DNA of 64,000 bases from a virus. The translations under genes and the position numbers were made by a program. The stretch is taken from the IMG/VR virus record IMGVR_UViG_3300042546_000155. One strand, given 5' to 3'. Positions 12,168 to 57,484 of the stretch are shown here, piece by piece (the first letter of the stretch is position 1; each line of letters opens with the position of its first letter). Under the pieces are notes generated by a model. It searched no databases. It was not told the DNA's origin and saw only the letters and a program-made list of their open reading frames with translations.

Positions 12168-14266
12168 TTAAACTCCATATATTGTTAAGGCAGATAGATA
12201 CATGATGCCAAACATGAGAGTGGCACCAATAACAGCACCCAACAATCTTAGTTCAATATCGGTCTTATCATTCACCTTGGGACTTGGAGACCGCTCTGTG
12301 GTAGTATCGCTCGAATATTGACAAACGATCTTCTTCCGAGTAGTCGTCGGGAATTGGTATACCTTTGCACTTTTGCCAGACTTCATCAGCCATCTCCAAC
12401 ATAAATTCACGATCTTTTATATCTTCTATTTTATCAGTCTTTGATTTTGTCATTATAATACACCAATAGTTCGCACAAGTCAACTGTTTTCTGAATGTCT
12501 CTTTTACTTATTCTGTGTTCTGCCAAAATCTGCAATTGCTCGTTCCTGTTCTCGCAGGTACTCATCTGTCTTAGTATCTCTATGCAGACTTCCAGGTCCT
12601 CGTTTATCAATTCGAACATGTTGAGTCTCCTTCTTTCGGATCCAATCGGTACATGCTCTAGCTTGTTGATCCGTGATTTCTCCATTACAAACTGGTTTCA
12701 TCTTCGGATACATAAAAACTTGATCTAATATAGGTATAGTCATATAAAGAAAAATGAAGACCGCCCCAAAAGTGAACGGTCTAGTTTCATACCATCTTTT
12801 GAGCATAGTATTATTTATGCTTCTTCTTTTCGCTTGAAGATAAACTCCTTCTTCTTTTCAACTGGCCATTCAGCAAAGTAAGGACCATTCATCTCATCAA
12901 ATACTCGCAGGTATTCTTTCTCATCAACTACACGATGGGAAAAGATTTCTTCGCCGATCCACTTCTGACCAACTTCACTCATATCAGGATCATCTTTGGT
13001 AATTTCAGAGATAACATCCTCAATAGCCCAATCATCAGGTGCATCATCAGGCAACTCAACTGCATGAACATGACGAAAAGAACTTACGGTTTCAACCAAC
13101 ACGATCTTAGACATATTTTAGTTTCTCCTCAATCCATTCTTGGTATTGCTCTTGACTAGAAAAGTAGTTTATCACAAGATCAAGAGCGTTACGCATTTCA
13201 TCATCATTCATATCCGCATGACGATATGCTTCTTTTAGATTTTGCCTAGTGATTTCATCCATAATGTCGTAGTCAATATCAAGTGTAAATTTGCTCATTT
13301 CTTTTCCCACCATGTTATCTTTGGATTATGAAACTCATATGCCTGAACCAACTGCTCGGTCGTCCATATTTCAGGAGTAGTAAAGTTTCCTTCAAGCCAC
13401 CTTGTAAACCGAACCCAGTCTTTGCCTTTCATAATATTGAGACCTAACTCGGTATATTCTGGAACGTCATCACCATACACATCAATACGACCAGCACACC
13501 AGTCTTTACCGTTTTCATCAATCCACTTCTTGTTGACTGGACCCATCCAGTTTGTTGAGTATCTTACTTTCATCTTACCACTCCGGTGCGAATGATTTGC
13601 CACGAGTAAAAACATACGATACATCTGATCCATATGCAGGACAGATATGCACCTCTTCGGGTATACCGTTTATATCTTTCTCACCTGCTTCACCACAAAT
13701 GAAAAAGACACCAAAATGCTTTTCAGCGAAAACATTATGACGCAGAAACTTATTCATTATTTCAATGCGGTGTGCCGCCAGTTCATAGTCATCTTGGCTA
13801 CAGTTATCCCAATCACGGAGACGTTCCACGAGTTCTTCATTTGTCATTTTATCAGTCATTTCTTTTTCCCTACATCATCAAGATTTGTGCCGTCAGTAAT
13901 ATACTGATATGGACCTTTGGAATACAGAGGGGCAGTCCTGGCCGCCTTAGCAAGAATAGCCTTGCGAGTTTCTTCGCTCTCTTTATGCAGATTAGCCATC
14001 ACGGAACGATTAGCCGTGGCATTTGCAGGTGCATTACACACCTCTTGAATAGATTTTTCGTGATGTTTGGTAGAACGATCTACCTGCAATGAATTAGAAT
14101 AATCAGACTTCCAGGAAGTATTCTTAGTCTTCTTTGCCTTAATCTGCTTAGGCGAAACACCCATCTTTACCAACCATGCATCATGCTCGGAACGATCATG
14201 CTTGGTCTGCTTGCGCTTGCGCTTGCGAAGATTGGTCGTGGTATAATAGACGGGAAGAAGCGGCAT
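12168..14266 (-). CDS. run of about 9 small hypothetical genes (e.g. 12268-12453, 12434-12619, 12504-12806, 12815-13114, 13107-13298, 13295-13573, 13575-13859, 13856-14266)
   Basis: Tightly packed or overlapping ORFs with RBSs downstream of the promoter at 14290-14318; no function recognised. Confidence 0.55.
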
Positions 14267-14289: not shown

Positions 14290-14318
14290 AGTATAGCAAA
14301 ATCTAGTGGTGTTGTCAA
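14290..14318 (-). promoter_or_regulatory. sigma70-type early promoter
   Basis: TTGACA-N17-TATACT. Confidence 0.75.
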
Positions 14319-14320
14319 GC

Positions 14321-14348
14321 AAAAAGGGTGCGACGTTTTGTCGCACCC
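14321..14348 (-). terminator. intrinsic terminator after pmoC
   Basis: GGGTGCGAC-AAAAC-GTCGCACCC-TTTTT. Confidence 0.8.
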
Positions 14349-14373
14349 CAGTTTACATTCGTTTACATTTACC

Positions 14374-15144
14374 TTACTCGGTTAGGAGAGCAACGCCTTC
14401 CTTACCAACTAGAGAATGAACACGTCCTAGGATCTGTAGCACAACACCAAAGACACCTAGTGCCATCCATCCAAAGAATACGAAGCCCCAATGTAGCGGT
14501 GCCACAAATAGCTCTTCCATAAACCAGAATGTATGACCCCACTCATTGAGCCCAACGTTTGGAATAATCATGAATGGACCAATAGCAACAATCAGGAACG
14601 CAAGGCTATATCCCTGTGCGAAGTAAGGAATACGGGTCTTCGCATAGAAGAACGCACCAACAGCGATGATTGAATAGATTGGATAACTCATGTAGAACTC
14701 AATGATATGTGACGGAGTGAAGTCGGTATCACGAATGACTGTCATATGCCAGGTACCATCTTGTTCGGTGAAGAAACTTGCACCCCAATAGATAGCAACA
14801 GCATAAACAACCAACCACTGAACTAATACAGTTAGACGACGCATTTCTTCACGAGGTGAGAGGCTTGCGAGGTCACGGTCTCTTGTCTTCCATAGGTAAC
14901 CTGCTAGTGCAAGACCTGAAACCAATTCTAGTGGAATTTCTGTCCAGAGGATACTCATCCAGTATGTCTGGAACTCTGGTGCGAACGAGTCAAGGCCGGC
15001 ACGCCAACCATATACTTGTTCATAAATACGGACTATTAGATAAAAGGTATTTAGAAGGGCTAGGCCGATCCACATACCCCTAAGGTCAACGACCTCATTA
15101 ACGCCGGTAGCCACGGCTTTCGCCGATTGATTTACAACGCTCAT
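14374..15144 (-). CDS. pmoC: particulate methane monooxygenase subunit C (Methylocystis-type)
   Basis: GLDSFAPEFQTYW, WGASFFTEQDGTWHMTVIRDTDFTPSH (Asp/His/His metal ligands), PNVGLNEWGHTFWFMEELFVAPLHWGF; TAGGAG RBS. Confidence 0.98.
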   Translation of the reverse strand: MSVVNQSAKAVATGVNEVVDLRGMWIGLALLNTFYLIVRIYEQVYGWRAGLDSFAPEFQTYWMSILWTEIPLELVSGLALAGYLWKTRDRDLASLSPREEMRRLTVLVQWLVVYAVAIYWGASFFTEQDGTWHMTVIRDTDFTPSHIIEFYMSYPIYSIIAVGAFFYAKTRIPYFAQGYSLAFLIVAIGPFMIIPNVGLNEWGHTFWFMEELFVAPLHWGFVFFGWMALGVFGVVLQILGRVHSLVGKEGVALLTE

Positions 15145-15166
15145 ATATCACTCCTATTTTATTATT

Positions 15167-15207
15167 GACCGGGTCTTCCGGGATAGGTTACCCGGTCTGT
15201 TATTTAG
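15167..15207 (-). promoter_or_regulatory. T4-type late promoter (CTAAATA) plus 5' leader hairpin of pmoC
   Basis: CTAAATA at 15201-15207, matching the boxes before gp22 and gp3; 8-bp stem GACCGGGT/ACCCGGTC. Confidence 0.65.
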
Positions 15208-15293
15208 CAGTCCCTATTGACTACTTGACAATAGTATGACATAGATTGCCGATGGAAAACAGTCAATCCTAGACAATCTGCTATCAATTTTCG

Positions 15294-17271
15294 TCATTCG
15301 TCAGGAACTTCCATATTAGGATTAAGTAAAGGAATAGTTCCTGTTGCTCCTCCATACGACATAGATACACCAGGCTTTGATGACTGCCATCCTTTTCTAT
15401 AACCATCAGATGGTGGAGGTGCGCCGTTAATTTGTGCCATGCTTTCTTCATATGTGCCTGGACCGAGAGAACGATTTTCAGTCGTCATTGGTACTTGAGC
15501 ATTAACCGCCGTGGGGAATACCACCATTAAGATCAAGATCAAAAATTTCATCATACATTCTTTCCTCTTTTCTTTTTGAATAGATACCATTGCAGTCTTA
15601 TAAAACCAATGACACGATTGATATAGTCGATCAGATATATATCTCTCTTGTTAAGCCTCAGGCGTAGTTGATTGTTTTCATCTTCATACTTTTGTATGAG
15701 ATATGCAGCACGGCGAGGGACAGAGTTGCAATGAACATGATTAGCCTTTTCAACCCAATCTGCTAACTCGTGTAGTTGTTTGATTAGTTCATCATTACTC
15801 ATACGACATATACCATAAACCAAGCGATGAAAAGTGCAATTGTAATAAGGACGGGAACAAACCCAAAGGCATATACTAGTCCTCCGATAATTGCAATCCA
15901 TAACGCTATACCGAACAATTCAACTTTCATCTATTCTCTCACCTATTTCATTGACGTGGAAACCAGGACGGATATCTGTATCTTCCGTTGTTATCTTGAA
16001 GAACTTGATAACATGGTTAGAATACCATCTGTCCCGGTCTCCACCGTCGAACTTTTGTTCTCTTATATAATCATCAAACAGTTTGTTATATTCTGCTTGA
16101 GTTATTGATTTCATTCAACTGATCTTCTAATTCTGCGATACGTTGTCGTAGTTTAGCGTTTTCTTCAATCAAACCCAATGCGGCAGATGATGAAATTTCA
16201 GTCACCTGTTTTGTCCCATCCTTATTAAACTTCATCGTCATAGTTCGTTCATCGTTCATTCTTTATACTCCTTAGACATACAATAACAGCAAAAAATAAA
16301 ACTACTATGGGCACTAAAACTAATGGTTCATGAGTTAGTCCATACATAGGAGCAGAGGCAAGTATGCAAATCAATCCAGTTATGATTAGAAACTCTTTCT
16401 TACTCACAAATCAGCCTTCATCATCGTCTCACTTCCAAAACGCATACGCTTCAATAGCATACTTGTTTCTGGTAGAATACGGTTCATAAAATATTCTGCG
16501 GTATTGTGTCTGTCCTTATCGTCAGTCATCTTTACATAATTCTCTTATTAGTTCGGCAATCTTCAAACAGTTTTCAGAGTTATACACATTAGACCAATAT
16601 GCTTGATCTTCACCGTTTGTTGGTCGTTTGCTGAAATACTGTGACGTTGATTCTAACCATAATATTGCTTCAAACGCTGTCATTCTACAATCTCCTCATA
16701 ACCACGATGCTTCGTAATAGATAGAACGATATTCATCCTTAGAATGTTCTTCAGTTAGCCAGTTTTTAGCCTTCGTGAATAGTTCTATATCACGAGCCTT
16801 CTGTTCCTCATGAGGATCGTATTCGTCTTTTTCCTCTGTGAAATAAGCCTTACCAAAGAAAAAACCTGTTACAAGTTCATCATAATGGCTATCATTCTCC
16901 CATACATTAATAATATAATCAAGGTCATCTTTATCTAGATCGATCTTCTGGCCATCATCAAATCCGGCAGCAAAGGCTTCAACGATAAATCCATGAAGGT
17001 TGACACGTTTATTCCAATAACCCATTTCAAGTAACACAGACGAAACAGGAAATCCATCGACCTTTTGTTCTTTGGAAAAAGAACACTTATTACCGTAGAG
17101 ATACATATCAAGACCCATGTTTCAATCCTTTCTTGACTTCCTTTTCCGATACAACATTTCCGCAACTACAAAAGGATCTATTCCAGGAAAGTATCCTTTT
17201 TCTTGGAGATACTCAGCCTGTCTAATATACTCTATTTGCTCTCGGAAGTCAAGTTCTTTCCACGATTTCAT
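15294..17271 (-). CDS. run of small hypothetical genes (includes a signal-peptide protein at 15294-15554 and the MGLDMYL-type protein 16696-17118)
   Basis: Packed small ORFs; no function recognised. Confidence 0.5.
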
Positions 17272-17352
17272 CAAAACCTCGGAATACTAAATAGAAGTGT
17301 AGGTCGCAGGACGGGAATCCTCACCTACTCTAAACCTGATCGGAGGTCCAGC

Positions 17353-18048
17353 ATGGATATTTATACTACAACCAACTACCGCAAAATCTGGGAACATTTC
17401 AACGGTCCTATTCCTAAAGACGAACAAGGAAGATCGTATGAAATCCATCACATCGACGGTAATCATTCCAATAATCATATAGATAATCTCCAGTGTGTTT
17501 CTATACAGGAACATTACGATATTCATTTTTCCCAGAACGACACATACGCTTGTTTGAGAATATCTCAAAAACTCAAAATGTCCCAACAAGAAATCTCTGA
17601 CTTTGCCACCAAGTTGAATAACGAAAGATGGTCTGATCCCGAATACTATGCCAGAATGTTAGAAATCAATAACGCTCCTGAGATAAGAAAACTAAGGTCA
17701 GATAATCTAAAAAGACAATGGGATGATCCAGAGTTTCGTGATAACATGGTGGCCATTAGAAACTCTCCTGAATACTTGGAAGAAAGATCAAAGATAAGTT
17801 CAAAGGTTTGGTCCAATACTGCCAAAAGAGAAGCATTATCAAAGAAGCATAAAGAAACATGGTCTGACCCTAAAAAGAGACAAGAGCAGTCGGAAAGACG
17901 AAAGAAGTATTTCCAAACTGCTCCTGTGTTTCATTGCTCATGCTGTAATCGTGATATAAAAGGACAACACAACTGGAATCAACATCTAAACTCCAAACAA
18001 CATCAGAACTCGTCTGGAGTTAGTGCCATCATTGTTTGTGATCCTTGA
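17353..18048 (+). mobile_element. free-standing HNH homing endonuclease with C-terminal zinc finger
   Basis: YEIHHIDGNHSNNHIDNL...EHYDIH; repeated basic W-x-D/N-P-E helices; CSCC...HLNSKQH; opposite strand with its own ACTAAATA (17286-17293) and GGAGG RBS. Confidence 0.85.
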
Positions 18049-19706
18049 CGAATCTTTTTCAGTAAGAAACTGGCTTCTGGCAAGACATTCTCCATAAAAT
18101 AAGTTGCGGTAGTATGTCTTGCTTTGTCGTCGGTTGCCAAACAAATACGAATATGCGCCAATCCTAACAAAACCAATCCAAACATTTTCATATATGGATA
18201 ACTTGCTGCACCAGCATCATTAGGATTCTTCATACCATTTGCTGCTAACCATTCAGTTGCTTGCTTTAGTTCGCTTACGGCTTGTGTCATTGGCTGAACG
18301 ATATGGTTGATATCGTGTTCATAAGAACTTGTTAGGAATGTTTCAGTATCTTTGAAGAAAGTCATAATAGCACGACCCATGTTCTTTGGCAACTTACGAC
18401 CAACAAGATCAAGAGCCTGAATACCATTAGCACCTTCATAGATCATGGCAATACGGGCATCACGGACAATCTGTTCCATGCCATTGTCACGGACATAACC
18501 ATGACCGCCCCATACTTGCTGCATCTTGATAGCGTTCTCAACACCATAATCAGTAACAACACCTTTGAGAACTGGAGTCATAAGACCAAGACGATCTTCC
18601 GCTTCTTCTCCACCCTTATCAACTAATGTGGCTGCTTCTAATACTAATAGACGGGCAGCTTCATTAATGCTGCGAACATCCATAAGCATACGCCTAATAT
18701 CAGGATGTGAAAGAATAGCGACACTAGGACCGCTAAGAGCGACGGCACTCTTACTCTGGATTCTGTCTTTGGCATATTGTAAGGCATTTTGAAACGCTAA
18801 CTCCGATTGTGATAGACCATGAATAGCACAGCCTAATCTAAGTTCATTCATCATAATAAACATGCCCTGGAGACCACGGCATCTTTCACCGATTAGGAAT
18901 CCTGTAGCACCATCAAAGTTCATAACACAAGTTGGTGAACCATGAATACCCATCTTAGATTCAATAGAACCACAAGATACTTTGTTGCGTGACATATCAG
19001 GAAGAATCTTTGGCACAGCAAACAAACTAATACCTTTGACACCTTCTGGGTCGCCTGCCGCACGGGCGAGGACGAGGTGAAGAATGTTCTTTGTTAGATC
19101 ATGTTCACCACCAGAAATAAAAATCTTCTGGCCAGTAATCTCATATGATCCATTCTGTTTATCTACTGCTTTAGTCTTGAGCAAACCAAGGTCAGTGCCG
19201 CAATGTGGTTCAGTAAGACACATTGTTCCTGTCCATTCACCACGCACCATTGGTGGAATGAATGTTTCTTTCTGTGCATCTGAACCAGAAACTAGTAGTG
19301 TTTGTATCGCTCCACGAGTAATGCCAGCAAAAAGAGACCAAGCCATGTTAGATGAGGATACAAATTCGTTTGCAGCAACCGCAAGTGTAAACGGCATACC
19401 TTGGCCGCCAAATCTTTCCGGAACTGATAGACCAATCCAACCTCCCTCTGCAAACTGTTTGTATGGTCCGTGGAAACATTCAGGCACATGAACACTCAAT
19501 GGTTCTACTGGTTCTGTAAAAGGAAACATAGGTGTTTTTTGTGAAAGTTTGCAACCTCTCCAATCACCTTCTTGATTAGTTGGTGCAATAGTTTCTTCTG
19601 ATAATTTTGCAATCTCTGTTAGGATTGGCTCTGTTAACTCGTTATCAAACTTTAGAACATCACGAAGAAGGAACAGGGTGGAATCTACTGGTGCTTTATA
19701 CTTCAT
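18003..19706 (-). CDS. acyl-CoA dehydrogenase (long proteobacterial type)
   Basis: GTMCLTEPHCGTDLG, GQKIFISGGEHD, KMGIHGSPTC, GGHGY, IYEGANGIQALDL. Confidence 0.93.
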   Translation of the reverse strand: MKYKAPVDSTLFLLRDVLKFDNELTEPILTEIAKLSEETIAPTNQEGDWRGCKLSQKTPMFPFTEPVEPLSVHVPECFHGPYKQFAEGGWIGLSVPERFGGQGMPFTLAVAANEFVSSSNMAWSLFAGITRGAIQTLLVSGSDAQKETFIPPMVRGEWTGTMCLTEPHCGTDLGLLKTKAVDKQNGSYEITGQKIFISGGEHDLTKNILHLVLARAAGDPEGVKGISLFAVPKILPDMSRNKVSCGSIESKMGIHGSPTCVMNFDGATGFLIGERCRGLQGMFIMMNELRLGCAIHGLSQSELAFQNALQYAKDRIQSKSAVALSGPSVAILSHPDIRRMLMDVRSINEAARLLVLEAATLVDKGGEEAEDRLGLMTPVLKGVVTDYGVENAIKMQQVWGGHGYVRDNGMEQIVRDARIAMIYEGANGIQALDLVGRKLPKNMGRAIMTFFKDTETFLTSSYEHDINHIVQPMTQAVSELKQATEWLAANGMKNPNDAGAASYPYMKMFGLVLLGLAHIRICLATDDKARHTTATYFMENVLPEASFLLKKIRQGSQTMMALTPDEF

Positions 19707-45560: not shown

Positions 45561-47285
45561 TCAACCCTCTTTTGTCAAGGTGCTAAAGTTCTTTACCTTC
45601 TCAAACTTGATAGTTCTTTCAAATCTATCAATCATTGTGTCCTTATGGGAAATGACAAACACATTAGTTCCTTCATGTCCGATATCCCACATGATACGGA
45701 TAAACTCATCAATACCGCTAGAGTCCATAGCACGATCTAGTATCTCATCGAACACAAGGATATTGACATTGACACTATTCTTTAGTTTGGCAATCTGTCG
45801 CCATGTTAGAAGAATAGCAAGGTCAATTCTTAACTTCTCTCCTTCTGAGAAATTGTGGTATGAGAACTCGTCTCGGTATCTAGACTTGATAGATTCTTCG
45901 AATGACTCATTGATATTAAAGTTGACGAAGAAGCCAAGTTTTGCAAGATACTTGTTGATGTGTTTGTTAATGATGGGTAGATACTGCTTAATGATCTTAG
46001 TTTTGATTCCACCATCTTTGAGTAGAGTAGTAGCGAGGTCGATGTATTGACGCTCATCTAAAAGGGTCTCCTTCTCCTTTTGGAGGGTGGAAATATCATG
46101 TTGCACTGTTTCAAGTTGTCGTTCTGACTCTTGGGTGGTTTTATCTGACCCAGAGAAGGATTCAATCTGCTCAACAACTTGGCGCAGATTATTAGCAATA
46201 TTGTTATAGGAAGACTTAGCAGATGCCAAGTCCATCTTAAGGATGTTGATGTTAGTAAGGATCTTTTCAATCTCATCGATTTCCGTTAGAACCGAGTCAA
46301 TCTGCTTTTCAACTTTATTTAGTCCGTCGGAAAGTTCATTGATCTTAACATCATTATCTTCGATCATCTTTTTTGAAAACTCAGGATCAATATCCTGACG
46401 ACAAGTCGGACATGTGCCTGTAGCTGCAAAGAAGTCAATGTCTTTGACATACTTATCACGATTAGCTTCCATCTTTGCTCTGAAAGATAGTAGCTTAGAA
46501 TGCTTAGACTTAAAAGGTGATAGATCAAGATCCTTTTCAAGAGCCTTCTCTAGCAAGACTTGACGATTAGCCACACCTTGCTTTTCAATAGCAACCTGTT
46601 CCTCTAGGCCCTGCTTCTTTGCTTCTAGTTCTCTTAGCTTTTCTTCACTGTTGGCCTTGAGTGAAGCGAGAGTCTTTTCGATATAAGACTTGTTTTCATC
46701 CTTAGATGTTAGAATGACACGGTTCTTCTCCAAACCTTCACGATTAGCCTGTAGTCTATTCTTAACCACGGTTGACATGGCTGTAAAGATTTGAATGTCT
46801 AGAAGGTCTTCAATAACTGCACGGCGATCATTAGCTGATAGCTGCATGAATGGAACGAACGATGCCGAGCCGAGGATGACCACCTGTGTAAAGGACTTGA
46901 AGTTCATCTTAAGGATATGCTTCTCAAGATATTCTTGATAATCCTTCGCAGCGGCATCTTGATTCAACATGACACCATCACAATAGATTTGAAAGAGATT
47001 TGGTTTTGCACCACGAACAACTTTATATCTTTTGTTGTTTATGGAAAACTCAATCTCAACCTCACAGTTCTTATTGTTGATAGAGTTTACAACATTACCC
47101 TTGTTCACCTTACGAAAAGGCTTACCGAATAGCACAAAAGTCAATGCGTCGAGGAAGGTTGACTTCCCCGACCCATTGTGGCCCATGATTAGAGTATTCT
47201 TGTGCGTATCTAGTTCAATTTCTGTCCATACATTACCTGCGGACAGAAAATTCTTCCACTTGACATAATGAAAAGTTATCATCAA
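45561..47285 (-). CDS. 46: recombination endonuclease ATPase subunit (gp46, Rad50/SbcC-like)
   Basis: [13 protein letters not shown] zinc hook, FSEGEK, FDEILD, SH. Confidence 0.95.
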
Positions 47286-49066
47286 AACTCTCTTGTTGGA
47301 ATCTTACCCTCTAGTAGATCGGAGATTTCTTCACCCGATAGAGTTTCGTATTCTAACAGACCATTAGCAAGTTTGTCAAGGTCTTTTCTTTTCTCTGTAA
47401 GGATTTTCTTAGCAGTAAGATATCCTTCTTCAACAAGCCGCTTGATTTCCATATCGACTACCTTCTGAGTTTCTTCGGCAATCTTTGGTGCATGGAACAT
47501 ATCTGCACCTGGTGTTGAGTATGCCATACGACCTAGAACAGGAGAGAAACCATACTCGGTGACCATAGAACGAGCAAGTTGAGTTGCCATCTGAATGTCA
47601 CCAGATGCACCAGAAGATACCTTGTCATCACCAAAGATCATTTCTTCTGCTACACGACCACCCATAGCCATTGCTAGATTGGCGATCATTTCATCATAGT
47701 GCATGGAGATTTTATCTCGCTCTGGTAGGGACTGAACCATACCCAAAGCACGACCACGAGGAATGATTGTTGCTTTGTGAATTGGAACAGAACCAGGCAT
47801 GTTAAGAGAGACTAGAGCATGACCAGCTTCGTGATATGCAGTCATCTTCTTTTCTTCGTCAGTCATCATTAGTGAACGACGCTCAGGACCCATAAGGATC
47901 TTATCACGAGCATCTTCAAACTCCATACTAGTAACGATACGCTTTGATCTTCTAGCAGCAAGCAAAGCCGCTTCATTGACTAGATTAGCAAGGTCAGCAC
48001 CAGAGAAGCCAGGTGTTCCCTTTGCAACTCGCTTTAGATCAACATCAGAACCAATTGGAACCTTGCGAGTATGAACCTTAAGGATCTTTTCACGACCAAT
48101 AAAGTCTGGGTTAGGAACTTGAATCTGACGATCAAAACGACCAGGGCGCAATAGAGCCTTATCTAGAACATCTGCACGGTTTGTAGCAGCGACAATGATA
48201 ATGCCTTCATTAGTTTCAAAGCCATCCATTTCAACTAGCATAGCGTTTAGTGTTTGATCACGCTCATCATTACCTGATATACCGTTTGCTCTTGAACGAC
48301 CAACAGCATCGATTTCGTCAATGAAGATAATGCATGGTGCATTCTTCTTTGCTTGTTCAAACATATCTCTAACACGACTAGCACCAACGCCGACGAACAT
48401 TTCAACGAAGTCGGAACCAGAGATAGAGAAGAAAGGAACATTTGCTTCACCAGCAACCGCTCTTGCTAACAGTGTCTTACCTGTTCCTGGAGGTCCGACG
48501 AGTAGAACACCCTTTGGAATCTTTCCACCAAGTCTATGAAACTTTTCTGGTGATTGTAGAAACTCTACAACCTCTTGCAAGTCTTCTTTGGCATGATCAA
48601 CACCAGCAACATCATCGAATGTTACCTTAGTCTGATTTTCAGTAAGAAGTTTGGCCTTAGACTTACCAAGTCCCATAACACCGCCCGGACCTCCGGCTCG
48701 ACCTCGTGATAGAAAAATCCATAGTGCGAAGAATAGGAAAACAGGAAGTAGATTGATCAATAGACCAAACCAAAAATTACCTTGTTCTTCTTTAACTGTG
48801 ATATTTACTTTGTGCTGTTCAAGGCGAGGGAGTAGATTACTAACTCCGGTGACTGTGGTGGTGAACTGTCGGTTATCCATATAATGTCCGACAACTTCGG
48901 TTCCTATAATTGTTACATCATGAACTCTTCCAGCATCGACTTGTGCAATAAAGTCACTGTAGCCGATTTCACTGATTGCTTTCTGTTTAGGATTATCAAA
49001 CATAAAGGCAACTAGACCGATGGTCAGTCCAATAAGTATAATCCATGGTAAATTCTTTTTAATCAT
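47282..49066 (-). CDS. ftsH: ATP-dependent zinc metalloprotease FtsH
   Basis: Two N-terminal TMs, [39 protein letters not shown]; TATAAATA at 49093-49100. Confidence 0.97.
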
Positions 49067-50235: not shown

Positions 50236-50618
50236 TCAATCGTCTTTGGTAATTTCATTATAGATATCAACCTCGGATTGTCTTATCCATCCCAAATTGA
50301 TCATTCTACGAAACACCTTCTGCTTATCCTCAGGGTTAAGCGGAACAGGTTCTACGATCTTATCACAAAACCATTCTAAGTTTTGCTCAATCTCTTTAAC
50401 AATATCATCCGTGTCCATTATCGTGGTCCCATCTTATATCGAGTTGACTGAACCATTTCCTGATCATATTCTAGTAAAGCCTTATCAATAGCTTTACGAA
50501 TACCTTCTAGTCTCATTCGATAGTTACTACGAATATGAACACGCTCACCTTTATTCTTAAGGGATGTGATCAATGTCTGTACCTGAAAGGGCACATCATA
50601 CTGATTCTCTTCCGTCAT
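50236..50618 (-). CDS. two small hypothetical genes (50236-50418, 50418-50618)
   Basis: Coupled ORFs between genes 55 and 47. Confidence 0.55.
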
Positions 50619-51183
50619 CATTCTCTCCTTCAACAAACTTTTCTAAGCCTTCCTTGGCCTTCTTTCTTTCGAGTTTCTTTAGAAGTTCTCTTTCCTCAAA
50701 ATCTCGTATGAAGTCATTAATGTTATCATAGATGTTTGAAGAAATCAAGTGATTTCCATCGGCATCAATCATAAGTGAGGCATCATTAGTATGCAGAACA
50801 CTTTCTTGAAACCTCTTATACATTATATATTTGTTCTTCTTTTCTTTGTTCTTCCTTCTCTGAAAGGCGTAGTAACTAATCTGTGTGAAGTATGCAAAGG
50901 GGTTCTCTGACTTCTCGGGATTGAAGTTATCGAAATACATGAAACAGTTTTCAATTGCATCCGATATCATTTCATCACGATATGAGTAGTTCATGAACAA
51001 AGGCTTGGTGCTAAGATGCTCCGCAATGTCCTTAATACACTTACCAATGTAGTTTGAGATAACAGGCTTTGTTAGTCCATGCTGTTCTGCATAGGCACAC
51101 TGTTTCTTGTATTCTACAATCTCTTCCAAAAACTTCTTATTATCTACATAATGACGCTTAACTTTTTTTGCCATTTTATTCAC
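50596..51183 (-). CDS. 55: late-transcription sigma factor (gp55)
   Basis: HYVDNKKF, YIGKC, YSYRDEMISDAIENC, NPFAYFTQI. Confidence 0.95.
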   Translation of the reverse strand: MNKMAKKVKRHYVDNKKFLEEIVEYKKQCAYAEQHGLTKPVISNYIGKCIKDIAEHLSTKPLFMNYSYRDEMISDAIENCFMYFDNFNPEKSENPFAYFTQISYYAFQRRKNKEKKNKYIMYKRFQESVLHTNDASLMIDADGNHLISSNIYDNINDFIRDFEERELLKKLERKKAKEGLEKFVEGENDDGRESV

Positions 51184-55969: not shown

Positions 55970-56008
55970 TTTAGTTTCCTTCTTTCTGTTAACTAAAGTT
56001 AGTTTAAA

Positions 56009-57442
56009 TTACTTTGGGAGAGTTCTGCCAAGGGCCTGAACATAACGAGCCATTGGACCTTCAAGATTGCTCTCGTTGATTACTGATGGATCGCTTGACT
56101 CAACTAGGTCTAGAACGCCATCTGCCTTAACAGCAGTTGGGAAATAGTTCTCCCTTAGTGTTGAAATCTTATCGATAAATTCTTCGTCTGATGTATAGGT
56201 AACGTTCTCGGCAAGACCCTTTAGCTTCTCTGCCTGAGTTGATGTTAGACCTTCACAAACAGCAGAAACTAGCTCATACTTGCGTGATTCGTTAAGTGCA
56301 GATGATAGTGCAACATTGCGCTCAATTTCTTCGTTAAGTTTGGCTTCTAGTTCCTCAACTGTTGCTGATAGTTCCTCAACTACAGGTACAGAATCCTCTG
56401 GAATGTCGATATAGTGTTCAGCGAATAGGGCACGAAGACCACTGATGAAATCTTCTGTAAGTTCGCTACGGAGAGCGGACTCAACAGCAACTTCATTTTC
56501 TTCAATCCACTGTTCAACAACATAGTTTAGATAGTCATCAACGTCGGTTGATAGCTGTTCGTAGATTTCAGCAACTCTTTCTTCTAGAGTTTCGGCATAA
56601 GCCTGCTCTAGTAGAGCTACTTCCTCTTCTAGCTTTGCCTTAACGGCTGCTTCGAAGATTGTTGTTGCCTTAGCATGGAACTCCTCAGAAAGGTTCTCAC
56701 CTTCTAGAAGGGCATCAACATGCTCTGACATATCAACTTCGTATGTCTCTAGTGATTCTGCAATCTCATCTGATTCCTCTGAGACGAACTCAAAGTTCTC
56801 ATCGATAGCAGCAAGAATTTCTTCTTCATCAAGACCAGCTTCGATGGCTTCTGCAATAAAGTCTTCTAGTTCTTCTGAAAGTTCTAGTTCTTCATCGCAC
56901 TTTTCTTTACCTTCGTGCTTCTCATCTTCATCTTCTTTTTCTTCTTTGTCTTCTTTTTCTTCTTTGTCGTGCTTACGGGCTTCTTTAAGAGCCTTAATGC
57001 GCTCGGCTAGAGTTGGAGCATTTTCTTCTTCAACTACTTCACCTTCATTTACTTCATCTTCTGATAGCTTCTTAGTTGGCTCGGGTGCAACTGAACCCTT
57101 ACCAGCACGAGAAGAATCCTTACCAACTGCTGATGCAGCGGCAGCGCCTAGATTGCCTGATGGAAGTGAAGTTGGTGTCTGTCCACCAATATCCTGCTGC
57201 TGACCTTCGAAATCAGCATTATCAGAAGAACCAGCACCGTTCTGTGAACGCTTCTTATCTTCTTTCATCTTTGAACCTGGGCGTAGTGTCTTAGCATTGC
57301 CTGTTGAAGCGGTAGAAGGATCTACAGGATCAGGATTCGATACGCCACCATTACCCACTGATGGATAAGGATTGCTACCATAACCTTCCCCTAGAGTCTT
57401 TCCCTCTAGAACAGCCTTTGCTGCTTCTGTTAATGATGCCAT
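56009..57442 (-). CDS. 22: prohead core scaffold (gp22)
   Basis: LSEEF..KATTIFEAAV, DYLNYVVEQW, FISGLRALFAEHYI; late promoter at 57473-57480. Confidence 0.92.
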   Translation of the reverse strand: MASLTEAAKAVLEGKTLGEGYGSNPYPSVGNGGVSNPDPVDPSTASTGNAKTLRPGSKMKEDKKRSQNGAGSSDNADFEGQQQDIGGQTPTSLPSGNLGAAAASAVGKDSSRAGKGSVAPEPTKKLSEDEVNEGEVVEEENAPTLAERIKALKEARKHDKEEKEDKEEKEDEDEKHEGKEKCDEELELSEELEDFIAEAIEAGLDEEEILAAIDENFEFVSEESDEIAESLETYEVDMSEHVDALLEGENLSEEFHAKATTIFEAAVKAKLEEEVALLEQAYAETLEERVAEIYEQLSTDVDDYLNYVVEQWIEENEVAVESALRSELTEDFISGLRALFAEHYIDIPEDSVPVVEELSATVEELEAKLNEEIERNVALSSALNESRKYELVSAVCEGLTSTQAEKLKGLAENVTYTSDEEFIDKISTLRENYFPTAVKADGVLDLVESSDPSVINESNLEGPMARYVQALGRTLPK

Positions 57443-57484
57443 TGGAATGATACTCCTTTTATTCCTAATTGTTATTTAGTATTT

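What the first reader, a model, noticed from the sequence alone, without database searches (positions are those of the whole stretch)
14321..15207. Stand-alone phage pmoC built as a late-expressed monocistronic cassette
Seen: an intact Methylocystis-type PmoC with Asp/His/His (DGTWH...SH) and Asn/His/His (NEWGH...LH) metal ligands, and no pmoA or pmoB in the window. It has phage-like AT-rich codons, a CTAAATA box as before gp22/gp3, a 5' hairpin and a strong terminator. Established: pmoC-carrying large freshwater phages have been described, so the gene itself is not new. Inference: gp55-dependent expression sustains methane oxidation during virion assembly.
Basis: partly seen in the sequence, partly recalled or inferred. 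Interest (0 to 1): 0.8.

Follow-up and report, generated by a model that had tools for sequence, protein, structure and literature searches.

The report
Phage pmoC gene with late promoter
A complete T4-like freshwater phage carries its own intact copy of pmoC, one subunit of its host's methane-oxidising enzyme, behind a phage late-promoter box; such phages have been known since 2020, so this adds regulatory detail to a known case.

Summary
Window 14374-15144 (-) encodes a full-length 256-aa PmoC, about 89-92% identical to PmoC of purified Methylocystis pMMO, with both metal sites intact. The complete 174.5-kb T4-like genome has no pmoA or pmoB. The gene has phage-like codons and is under strong purifying selection.

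CTAAATA (15207-15201) is very probably a gp55-type late promoter:
- The genome encodes gp55.
- CTAAATA is the most enriched 7-mer upstream of ORFs and precedes wedge, sheath, tube, portal, scaffold and fibre genes.
- It is invariant before pmoC in seven relatives.
- In a distant lineage whose late genes use TATAAATA, pmoC carries TATAAATA.

"Insulated monocistronic cassette" is only partly right. Close relatives have the same two neighbour genes and no pmoC. In them the "pmoC terminator" and the next early promoter directly follow the upstream gene. That element is a resident, repeated PeSL-like terminator-promoter. The roughly 940-bp insert lies inside an early transcription unit with no terminator upstream, so early read-through is expected in addition to late expression.

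The role in sustaining methane oxidation is untested. The kind is known (Chen et al. 2020), and this scan has noted phage pmoC on at least six other genomes. Interest is modest.

The parts
14374..15144 (-). pmoC coding sequence, 256 aa, stand-alone
   Evidence: Pfam AmoC E 2.7e-109 and NCBIfam AmoC_BACT above its cut-off. Aligns with PDB 3rfr_C over residues 3-256. Ligands D129/H133/H146 and N200/H204/H218. dN/dS 0.03-0.13 against relatives.
15201..15207 (-). CTAAATA box, predicted gp55-dependent late promoter; the transcription start is predicted near 15195
   Evidence: Top-enriched upstream 7-mer in the genome. Precedes wedge, sheath, tube, portal, scaffold and fibre genes. Invariant in 7 relatives. 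The same motif was proposed as the late promoter of phage Aeh1, with C at -12 (PMC1524935).
15167..15197 (-). Leader hairpin HP2: GACCGGG pairs with CCCGGTC, and alternatively with an inner CCCGG at 15182-15178. It starts at the predicted 5' end of the late transcript.
   Evidence: Folds at -12.8 to -17.3 kcal/mol and leaves the SD free. Pairs are kept through changes in relatives, including L011, where all three segments changed together.
15207..15224 (-). Hairpin HP1 (GTAGTC...GACTGC). It abuts the box and shares its first C. Role unknown.
   Evidence: Seven-pair helix, 94% of cells paired, two pairs with compensatory changes. Folds at -9.1 kcal/mol, z -3.3.
15233..15241 (-). TGTCATACT, a conserved extended -10-like element with no -35 at 17 nt; candidate weak sigma70 promoter
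   Evidence: TGTCAT plus A/T, A/C, T is conserved in all 7 group A sequences. Not enriched genome-wide. This is inference only.
15270..15278 (-). GATTGTCTA, a conserved motif near the left end of the insert
   Evidence: Nearly invariant in the group A relatives: GATTGTCT is kept in all seven and L023 ends in G. Also present 5' of pmoC in L001 and L003, where the gene sits at another place in the genome. Not a repeated genome motif.
15151..15155 (-). Shine-Dalgarno AGGAG, 6 nt before the ATG
   Evidence: Read directly from the sequence. AATAGGAGTGA is invariant in relatives. Unpaired in the folds.
14325..14349 (-). Intrinsic terminator stem-loop (GGGGTGCGAC...GTCGCACCC plus a T run). Part of a resident PeSL-like element, not of the insert.
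   Evidence: Found by the scan. Folds at -19.2 kcal/mol, z -4.4. A homologous stem-loop sits directly after the upstream gene in the pmoC-less relatives L213, L223, L214 and L220. Further copies lie at genome positions 23443, 24167 and 26866.
14290..14318 (-). Early sigma70-type promoter TTGACA-N17-TATACT (preceded by TG) for the next gene; the second half of the PeSL-like element
   Evidence: 11 of 12 matches. One of about 50 such promoters on the coding strand. Present in the empty sites of relatives.
14351..15292 (-). Extent of the pmoC insert relative to pmoC-less relatives (about 940 bp: regulatory region, pmoC and about 24 nt)
   Evidence: Comparison of the occupied site with the empty sites in L213, L223, L214 and L220/L221.
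15294..15590 (-). Upstream neighbour, a small ORF of unknown function (98 aa from its first start codon; 86 aa from the start used in the neighbour comparisons). Last gene of an early unit; conserved flank.
   Evidence: ORF list. No family hit. It flanks both the occupied and the empty sites.
13856..14266 (-). Downstream neighbour, 136-aa ORF of unknown function; conserved flank
17224..17252 (-). Nearest upstream early promoter, TTGACT-N17-TATATT. No '-' strand terminator lies between it and pmoC.
50596..51183 (-). gp55 late sigma factor gene, the trans-acting partner of the box
   Evidence: phrog_234, late sigma transcription factor, E 1.6e-53.

Best explanation
This is an auxiliary metabolic gene. 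It is a stand-alone, fully functional-looking pmoC, long resident in T4-like phages of Methylocystis-type methanotrophs.

In this genome a roughly 940-bp insert lies in a hyperplastic region. It sits between the stop codon of a small early gene and that gene's resident terminator/early-promoter (PeSL-like) element. The insert consists of a conserved 149-nt regulatory region, pmoC and about 24 nt.

The regulatory region carries the lineage's gp55-type late promoter, CTAAATA. Host RNA polymerase with phage gp55 would start near 15195. The transcript would begin with a stable stem-loop, carry an exposed strong SD, and end at the resident terminator, giving a monocistronic late mRNA of roughly 880 nt.

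Nothing terminates transcription between the upstream early promoter (17252) and pmoC. The gene is therefore probably also read early, as the last cistron of that unit. A conserved extended -10-like element may add to this.

The protein would be inserted into host pMMO in place of, or alongside, host PmoC. This would keep methane oxidation, and hence energy supply, running while host gene expression is shut down.

Shown: gene identity, intact ligands, selection, absence of pmoA and pmoB, the genome-wide behaviour of the motif, the presence/absence polymorphism, and the resident nature of the terminator.
Inferred: the promoter's activity and timing, early read-through, and the physiological role.
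For: Gene:
- Identity and ligands.
- Purifying selection with near-saturated synonymous sites (dN/dS 0.03-0.13, dS 0.4 to more than 3).
- Codons adapted to the phage (GC3 0.42 against 0.87 in the host).

Genome:
- Complete T4-like genome with gp23, gp20, gp22, gp21, gp18, gp19, gp6, gp25, gp43, gp46, gp47 and gp55.
- No pmoA or pmoB.

Late promoter:
- CTAAATA is 28:4 strand-biased and is the top 7-mer upstream of ORFs (17 observed, 1.6 expected).
- It lies 17-60 nt before 11 identified structural genes.
- The same bias is seen in two related genomes (38:4 and 30:3).
- The box is invariant before pmoC in 7 distinct relatives while its flanks vary.
- In the distant genome G001 (core proteins 30-63% identical), the top upstream 8-mer is TATAAATA. 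It precedes gp6, gp18, gp19, gp22, gp23 and the gp3-like gene, and pmoC there carries TATAAATA.
- CTAAATA was proposed as a late promoter in phage Aeh1 (PMC1524935).

Leader:
- Long late leaders in this phage often carry a 5' hairpin (portal gene -20.6, pmoC -17.3 kcal/mol).

Insert and terminator:
- Empty sites in close relatives show the terminator and early promoter directly after the upstream gene.
- The stem-loop family is repeated in the genome.
- PeSL elements in T4-like phages are described in PMC4122927.

Read-through:
- No '-' strand terminator between 17252 and pmoC.

Expression in other phages:
- In three other pmoC-phages, pmoC is co-expressed with structural genes (PMC7674155).
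Against: - There is no transcript evidence for this phage or its group. Chen et al. found few RNA reads for the 159-168-kb pmoC-phages.
- The raw count of CTAAATA in the window is not above chance, and a second copy lies inside pmoC (15054-15048). A single box is therefore weak evidence on its own.
- One box also precedes the DNA polymerase gene, which is an early gene in T4.
- gp23 has no box of its own.
- In L001 and L003, pmoC alleles 94-95% identical to this one lack the box. Late-promoter control is therefore not obligatory for phage pmoC.
- gp33 and gp45 were not looked for.
- Whether phage PmoC assembles into host pMMO has never been shown.
Confidence: 0.7

Rival explanations
1. One reading: a self-contained, insulated, late-only monocistronic cassette that brought its own promoter, leader and terminator.
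For: The box, hairpin, SD and terminator are all present. Most pmoC variants in other phages also have a terminator within about 60 nt of the stop codon.
Against: The terminator and the following early promoter are homologous to the element that occupies the empty site in pmoC-less relatives, and that element is repeated in the genome. No terminator shields pmoC from the upstream early unit. The SD is not sequestered in a longer transcript.
Confidence: 0.15
2. pmoC is driven mainly by host sigma70 polymerase, through early read-through and/or the conserved TGTCATACT extended -10 element. Under this reading CTAAATA is not a working promoter.
For: The gene lies in an early region with about 50 canonical sigma70 promoters around it and no terminator upstream. 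TGTCATAMT is conserved and is followed at the right distance by the covarying hairpin HP1. Other lineages have TTGACT-N17-TATAAA before pmoC.
Against: CTAAATA is invariant in all relatives, and the box follows each lineage's late-box variant. The extended -10 element has no -35, unlike this phage's early promoters, and it is not enriched in the genome.
Confidence: 0.1
3. Phage PmoC does not sustain methane oxidation. It acts on the host in another way, for example as a dominant-negative or remodelling subunit, or in exclusion of other phages.
For: No functional data exist for any phage PmoC. Phage and host proteins differ mainly at the N-terminus and in the loop at residues 88-97.
Against: All six metal ligands and the whole membrane core are kept, under dN/dS of 0.03-0.13, across lineages whose core proteins are only 30-63% identical. 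That pattern is what is expected if catalytic function is retained.
Confidence: 0.04
4. Assembly chimera: host DNA joined to a phage contig.
For: Chen et al. noted that assemblies often break at pmoC.
Against: GC3 is 0.42 against 0.87 in a host pmoC, with only 73% nucleotide identity. The gene sits between the same phage neighbours in several independent assemblies, within 115 viral contigs that carry pmoC. The contig is complete, with a terminal repeat.
Confidence: 0.01

Closest known systems
pmoC-phages of freshwater lakes (Chen et al. 2020, Nat Microbiol, PMC7674155), the 159-175-kb group predicted to infect Methylocystis
   Same: Large phage with a stand-alone pmoC and no pmoA or pmoB. The Asp/His/His site is intact. 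The phage PmoCs cluster together next to Methylocystis sequences. An acyl-CoA dehydrogenase gene lies nearby. A late role had been inferred there from co-expression with structural genes.
   Different: That paper does not analyse promoters or terminators; the word 'promoter' does not occur in it. It had almost no RNA reads for this size class. New here: the late-promoter box and its lineage-specific variants, the empty-site relatives, and the resident terminator.
amoC in a marine T4-like phage 'flanked by a promoter and a terminator' (Gazitua et al. 2020, ISME J, PMC8115048)
   Same: The homologous subunit, alone, in a T4-like phage, described as a promoter-gene-terminator unit.
   Different: There the promoter was a BPROM sigma70 prediction and the gene lies next to gp23. 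Here the box is of the gp55 late type and the gene lies in the hyperplastic region between the acyl-CoA dehydrogenase gene and gp43.
T4-type late promoters, CTAAATA variant of Aeromonas phage Aeh1 (Nolan et al. 2006, Virol J, PMC1524935)
   Same: The same 7-mer, found upstream of orthologues of T4 late genes, with a gp55 homologue in the genome.
   Different: A different host group (alphaproteobacterial methanotrophs). No start sites have been mapped in either phage.
PeSL elements (promoter-early stem-loop) of T4-like phages (Arbiol et al. 2010, PMC2839356; Comeau et al. 2014, PMC4122927)
   Same: A compound terminator stem-loop plus early promoter. It is repeated with a conserved sequence in hyperplastic regions and lies at the edge of an insertion/deletion between close relatives.
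   Different: Only the right edge of the pmoC insert is such an element. The left edge is the stop codon of the upstream gene. PeSL-mediated recombination is therefore not shown.
Cyanophage psbA (D1) and other auxiliary metabolic genes of T4-like cyanophages
   Same: A single, labile, cofactor-binding core subunit of a host energy-conserving membrane complex, carried alone by T4-like phages and adapted to phage codon usage. This comparison rests on established knowledge and was not tested here.
   Different: A different enzyme. No turnover or repair cycle is known for PmoC.

Membership tests
PmoC/AmoC (Pfam PF04896; NCBIfam NF041641, TIGR03078) | Profile match above the curated cut-off over the full length | tested here: met
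   364.7 bits against 26.7; 359.8 against 319; 340.4 against 280.6.
PmoC/AmoC (Pfam PF04896; NCBIfam NF041641, TIGR03078) | Metal ligands Asp/His/His (D156/H160/H173 in Bath numbering) and Asn/His/His | tested here: met
   D129/H133/H146 and N200/H204/H218. They are aligned identically in 3rfr_C and 4phz_K. The Asp/His/His numbering follows PMC7674155.
PmoC/AmoC (Pfam PF04896; NCBIfam NF041641, TIGR03078) | Encoded in a pmoCAB operon | tested here: not met
   No PmoA or PmoB anywhere in the genome. The gene is therefore of the orphan (stand-alone) kind, which also exists in hosts (L211 and L234).
pmoC-phage (Chen et al. 2020) | A phage genome with hallmark genes that carries pmoC alone | tested here: met
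   T4-like core genes. Complete 174.5-kb contig.
pmoC-phage (Chen et al. 2020) | PmoC groups with phage-associated PmoCs next to those of the predicted host | tested here: met
   A clade of 34 rows: 32 viral PmoCs, including the window's, and two unnamed metagenome sequences, SH-aLRT 91, next to a Methylocystis cluster. The tree was a quick search without bootstrap.
gp55-dependent T4-type late promoter | A gp55 homologue is encoded | tested here: met
   phrog_234, E 1.6e-53.
gp55-dependent T4-type late promoter | An A/T-rich -10-type box (TATAAATA or a variant), without a -35, enriched upstream of late structural genes | tested here: met
gp55-dependent T4-type late promoter | Transcription start about 6 nt downstream of the box, late kinetics, dependence on gp55, gp33 and gp45 | not testable with these tools
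   No transcript data are available. gp33 and gp45 were not searched for.
Moron (autonomous promoter-gene-terminator insert) | Present or absent between the same flanking genes in close relatives | tested here: met
   L213, L214, L220/L221 and L223 lack it; L218 and L222 have it.
Moron (autonomous promoter-gene-terminator insert) | The insert carries its own terminator | tested here: not met
   The terminator is homologous to the one in the empty sites.
PeSL (terminator plus early promoter element) | A stem-loop directly followed by an early promoter, repeated with a conserved sequence, at indel edges in hyperplastic regions | tested here: met
   It lies only at the right edge of the insert.

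The most novel reading that the evidence does not exclude
The 149-nt region before pmoC may be a dual-phase control unit. A weak sigma70 extended -10 promoter and a gp55 late promoter would lie in tandem, and each would be followed at once by its own covarying 5'-terminal stem-loop. pmoC mRNA would then be made and stabilised throughout infection.

The phage also carries a Methylocystis-like ftsH, and a Methylocystis genome has ftsH directly 5' of an orphan pmoC. Together these could supply a repair kit for a labile PmoC subunit. That would make PmoC the counterpart of D1 (psbA/FtsH) in cyanophage-infected cells.
Probability: 0.15. Interest if true: 0.6.

Novelty: new member of a known kind. 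Interest (0 to 1): 0.3.

Why it matters
Phage pmoC may influence how much methane freshwater methanotrophs consume while infected, so when and how the gene is expressed is relevant to methane budgets.

The analysis gives the first cis-regulatory reading for the T4-like, Methylocystis-type pmoC-phages, for which published metatranscriptomes were uninformative. It predicts late expression from a lineage-specific gp55 box, probably on top of early read-through.

It also shows the gene as a presence/absence insert next to a PeSL-like element. This offers natural isogenic-like pairs (with and without pmoC) for ecological comparison.

None of this changes the known picture, and the physiological role remains unproven.

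Tried and rejected
- Annotated phage collection: neither DNA nor protein searches found a match.
- Pattern scan with the SD-containing leader motif: it returned mostly unrelated contigs because the motif is too generic, so one scan was wasted.
- Rfam: no family matched the window's leader and terminator region, or eight related loci.
- Pfam searches for AMO and Monooxygenase_B in the genome found nothing, but the control genomes did not ring either. I therefore repeated the test with real Methylocystis PmoA and PmoB by tblastn.
- GATTGTCTA as a genome-wide regulatory repeat: rejected. It occurs only by chance elsewhere.
- TGnYATAMT as an enriched promoter class: rejected (11 on the coding strand, 27 on the other).
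- Sequestration of the SD in longer early transcripts, as for T4 gene e or I-TevI: only a weak 5-bp helix, absent from the centroid and without covariation, so rejected.
I did not use that note as host evidence.
- The consensus fold of the group B leader gave only invariant pairs, so it offers no covariation test.
- No structure or complex prediction was run. The protein is about 90% identical to solved PmoC chains, so a model would add nothing.

Full report
**The gene**

The ORF at window 14374..15144 (minus strand, 256 aa) matches Pfam AmoC (E 2.7e-109). It also matches NCBIfam AmoC_BACT and CH4_NH3mon_ox_C above their curated cut-offs. It aligns end to end with PmoC chains from purified Methylocystis pMMO (3rfr_C and 4phz_K, residues 3-256). 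It is nearly identical to them from residue 18 on.

A 90%-identity cluster that is 92% identical to the query over its core holds a Methylocystis sp. MJC1 protein. "Methylocystis-type" is therefore correct.

**The genome**

The window lies in a single viral contig of 174,499 bp. At least 100 nt are repeated exactly at its ends, and CheckV rates it 100% complete. It is T4-like. Identified genes include:
- major head protein, scaffold, portal and prohead protease;
- sheath, tube and baseplate wedge subunits;
- DNA polymerase, the gp46/gp47 nuclease and UvsY;
- the late sigma factor gp55 at 50596-51183.

Neither the Pfam searches nor tblastn with real PmoA and PmoB from a Methylocystis pmoCAB operon (L232; best E 0.25) finds pmoA or pmoB anywhere in it.

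**Not a chimera, and under selection**

- pmoC has GC 0.46 and GC3 0.42, within the range of the phage's own genes (GC3 0.36 +/- 0.06). A Methylocystis pmoC has GC3 0.87 and is only 73% identical in DNA.
- 115 viral contigs carry a pmoC. About 50 of the 80 loci retrieved encode proteins 87-95% identical to this one.
- Against these relatives dN/dS is 0.03-0.13, while synonymous sites are near saturation (dS 0.4 to more than 3). The high protein identity therefore reflects constraint, not recent transfer.
- In a quick maximum-likelihood tree, 32 viral alpha-type PmoCs (the window's among them) and two unnamed metagenome sequences form one clade (SH-aLRT 91) next to Methylocystis sequences.
- Between this genome and G001 the core proteins are 30-63% identical, but PmoC is 93% identical.

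**The box**

CTAAATA lies at 15207-15201, 56 nt before the ATG.

- Taken alone the 7-mer is not rare: 14 in the window against 11.5 +/- 2.9 expected.
- Its distribution, however, is far from random. In the genome it is 28:4 in favour of the coding strand.
- It is the most enriched 7-mer in the 72 nt before ORF starts (17 observed, 1.6 expected), with ATAAATA close behind.
- [C/A]TAAATA lies 17-60 nt before the gp25-like, gp6 and gp8-like wedge genes, a tail fibre gene and its assembly gene, a 2278-aa gene, the sheath gene, the tube gene, the portal gene, the scaffold gene and the gp3-like gene.
- Canonical TTGAC[AT]-N17-TATAAT promoters, about 50 of them, fill the rest of the genome and are absent from the structural block.
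- CTAAATA was proposed as the late-promoter consensus of the T4-like phage Aeh1, with the C at -12 (PMC1524935).

**Comparative test**

- Seven distinct close relatives (group A) keep CTAAATA invariant before pmoC while the flanks vary.
- Two complete group A genomes show the same strand-biased excess (38:4 and 30:3).
- In a distant lineage (group B, genome G001) the top upstream 8-mer is TATAAATA (16 observed, 1.6 expected). It precedes gp6, gp18, gp19, gp22, gp23 and the gp3-like gene. CTAAATA is not enriched there, and pmoC there carries TATAAATA.
- The box before pmoC thus follows the late-box variant of whichever phage carries the gene. This is the strongest available evidence that it works as a late promoter.
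- In group B the box is also the -10 of a TTGACT-N17-TATAAA promoter. This is a composite early-plus-late design that the structural genes lack.
- L001 and L003 have 94-95% identical PmoC at another place in the genome and have no box.

**Leader**

By the Aeh1/T4 rule the start falls near 15195, at the foot of the hairpin GACCGGG...CCCGGTC (15197-15167; -12.8 to -17.3 kcal/mol). The SD AGGAG stays unpaired.

The pairs are kept in relatives. In L011 the 5' arm, the 3' arm and an inner alternative partner all changed together.

In this phage, half of the long late leaders carry a comparable hairpin (portal gene -20.6 kcal/mol), against 14% of control upstream windows. The leader is therefore phage-styled.

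A second hairpin (15224-15207) abuts the box and shows two compensatory pairs. A conserved TGTCATAMT lies 8 nt upstream of it. This could be a weak extended -10 promoter with its own 5' stem-loop. However, it has no -35 and the motif is not enriched in the genome, so it remains a hypothesis.

No Rfam family matches.

**Terminator and insertion site**

The stem-loop at 14349-14325 is strong (-19.2 kcal/mol, z -4.4). It is followed at once by TTGACA-N17-TATACT.

A search with the neighbouring acyl-CoA dehydrogenase found close relatives with the same two neighbours of pmoC and only 78-145 nt between them (L213, L223, L214, L220/L221). Some of their nearby proteins are 100% identical to the window's. 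In these empty sites the homologous stem-loop and early promoter follow the upstream gene's stop directly.

The same stem-loop sequence recurs at genome positions 23443, 24167 and 26866, mostly with a T run and a TTGAC promoter. This matches the PeSL elements described in hyperplastic regions of T4-like phages (PMC4122927).

The insert is therefore about 15292..14351. The terminator belongs to the backbone.

**Consequence for timing**

No minus-strand terminator lies between the early promoter at 17252 and pmoC. The SD is also not masked in a longer transcript. Early polycistronic transcripts should therefore run through pmoC to the resident terminator.

The best reading is early read-through plus a dedicated late promoter. 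It is not an insulated late-only unit.

**What is known already**

- Chen et al. 2020 described pmoC-phages of 159-527 kb. They showed the Asp/His/His site and the absence of pmoA and pmoB. From co-expression with structural genes in three phages larger than 300 kb, they inferred a role late in infection.
- They did not analyse promoters, and they had few RNA reads for the 159-168-kb phages.
- Gazitua et al. 2020 described an amoC flanked by a predicted promoter and terminator in a T4-like phage.
- This scan has noted phage pmoC on at least six other genomes, one of them already followed up with the same verdict.

The finding is a further member of a known kind with added regulatory detail.

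Noticed in passing
window 47282-49066 (-); L234:1874-4771: The phage encodes a full FtsH (Pfam Peptidase_M41, AAA, FtsH_ext). It is 66% identical to a Methylocystis FtsH that sits directly 5' of an orphan pmoC, separated from it by a terminator. FtsH is present in pmoC-phage genomes G003, G004 and G005 but not in G001 or G002. A possible link to PmoC turnover is untested.
   Followed up: partly
L010:5889-6003 and about 15 other distinct loci (alignment A2): In group B phages, pmoC has a composite TTGACT-N17-TATAAATA promoter. Its leader has invariant AAGAGTGGC and GACCACTTGA blocks around a covarying inner hairpin, followed by a T run. The leader resembles an attenuator, occurs only before pmoC in G001, and is not in Rfam.
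   Followed up: partly
genome positions 23443, 24167, 26866 (outside the window) and window 14346: A repeated stem-loop, GGTGCGACA-N4-GTCGCACC. It is mostly followed by a T run and a TTGAC early promoter, which makes it a PeSL-like family.
   Followed up: partly
window 16404-18134: An HNH endonuclease gene lies on the plus strand (17203-18048, Pfam HNH_3). It sits between the acyl-CoA dehydrogenase gene (18003-19706) and a 41-codon ORF (16404-16529). In relatives that ORF's sequence overlaps the 3' end of the dehydrogenase gene. This suggests an HNH cassette inserted with duplication of the gene's end.
   Followed up: partly
L212, L225, L231: These contigs share proteins 100% identical to window ORFs 16696-17118 and 16522-16683. 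They then continue into a DNA polymerase only 44% identical to the window's (group B-like) and have no pmoC. This points to strong mosaicism in this hyperplastic region.
   Followed up: no
L004 and L024, directly 3' of pmoC: Instead of a terminator, a small ORF with a signal-peptide-like start and a His-rich stretch follows pmoC. L002 has a similar ORF after its terminator.
   Followed up: no
window 15178-15195 (+): The complement of the pmoC leader hairpin reads as a terminator-like site on the plus strand (5-bp GC stem plus a T-rich tail). It could stop antisense transcription.
   Followed up: no
window 55970-56010 (-): The major head protein gene has no CTAAATA or ATAAATA box in its 39-nt upstream gap. 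It is probably co-transcribed with the scaffold gene from the box at 57479.
   Followed up: no
L211:3001-3771: Methylocystis sp. JAN1 has a stand-alone pmoC beside an AraC-type regulator gene, with no pmoA or pmoB adjacent.
   Followed up: no
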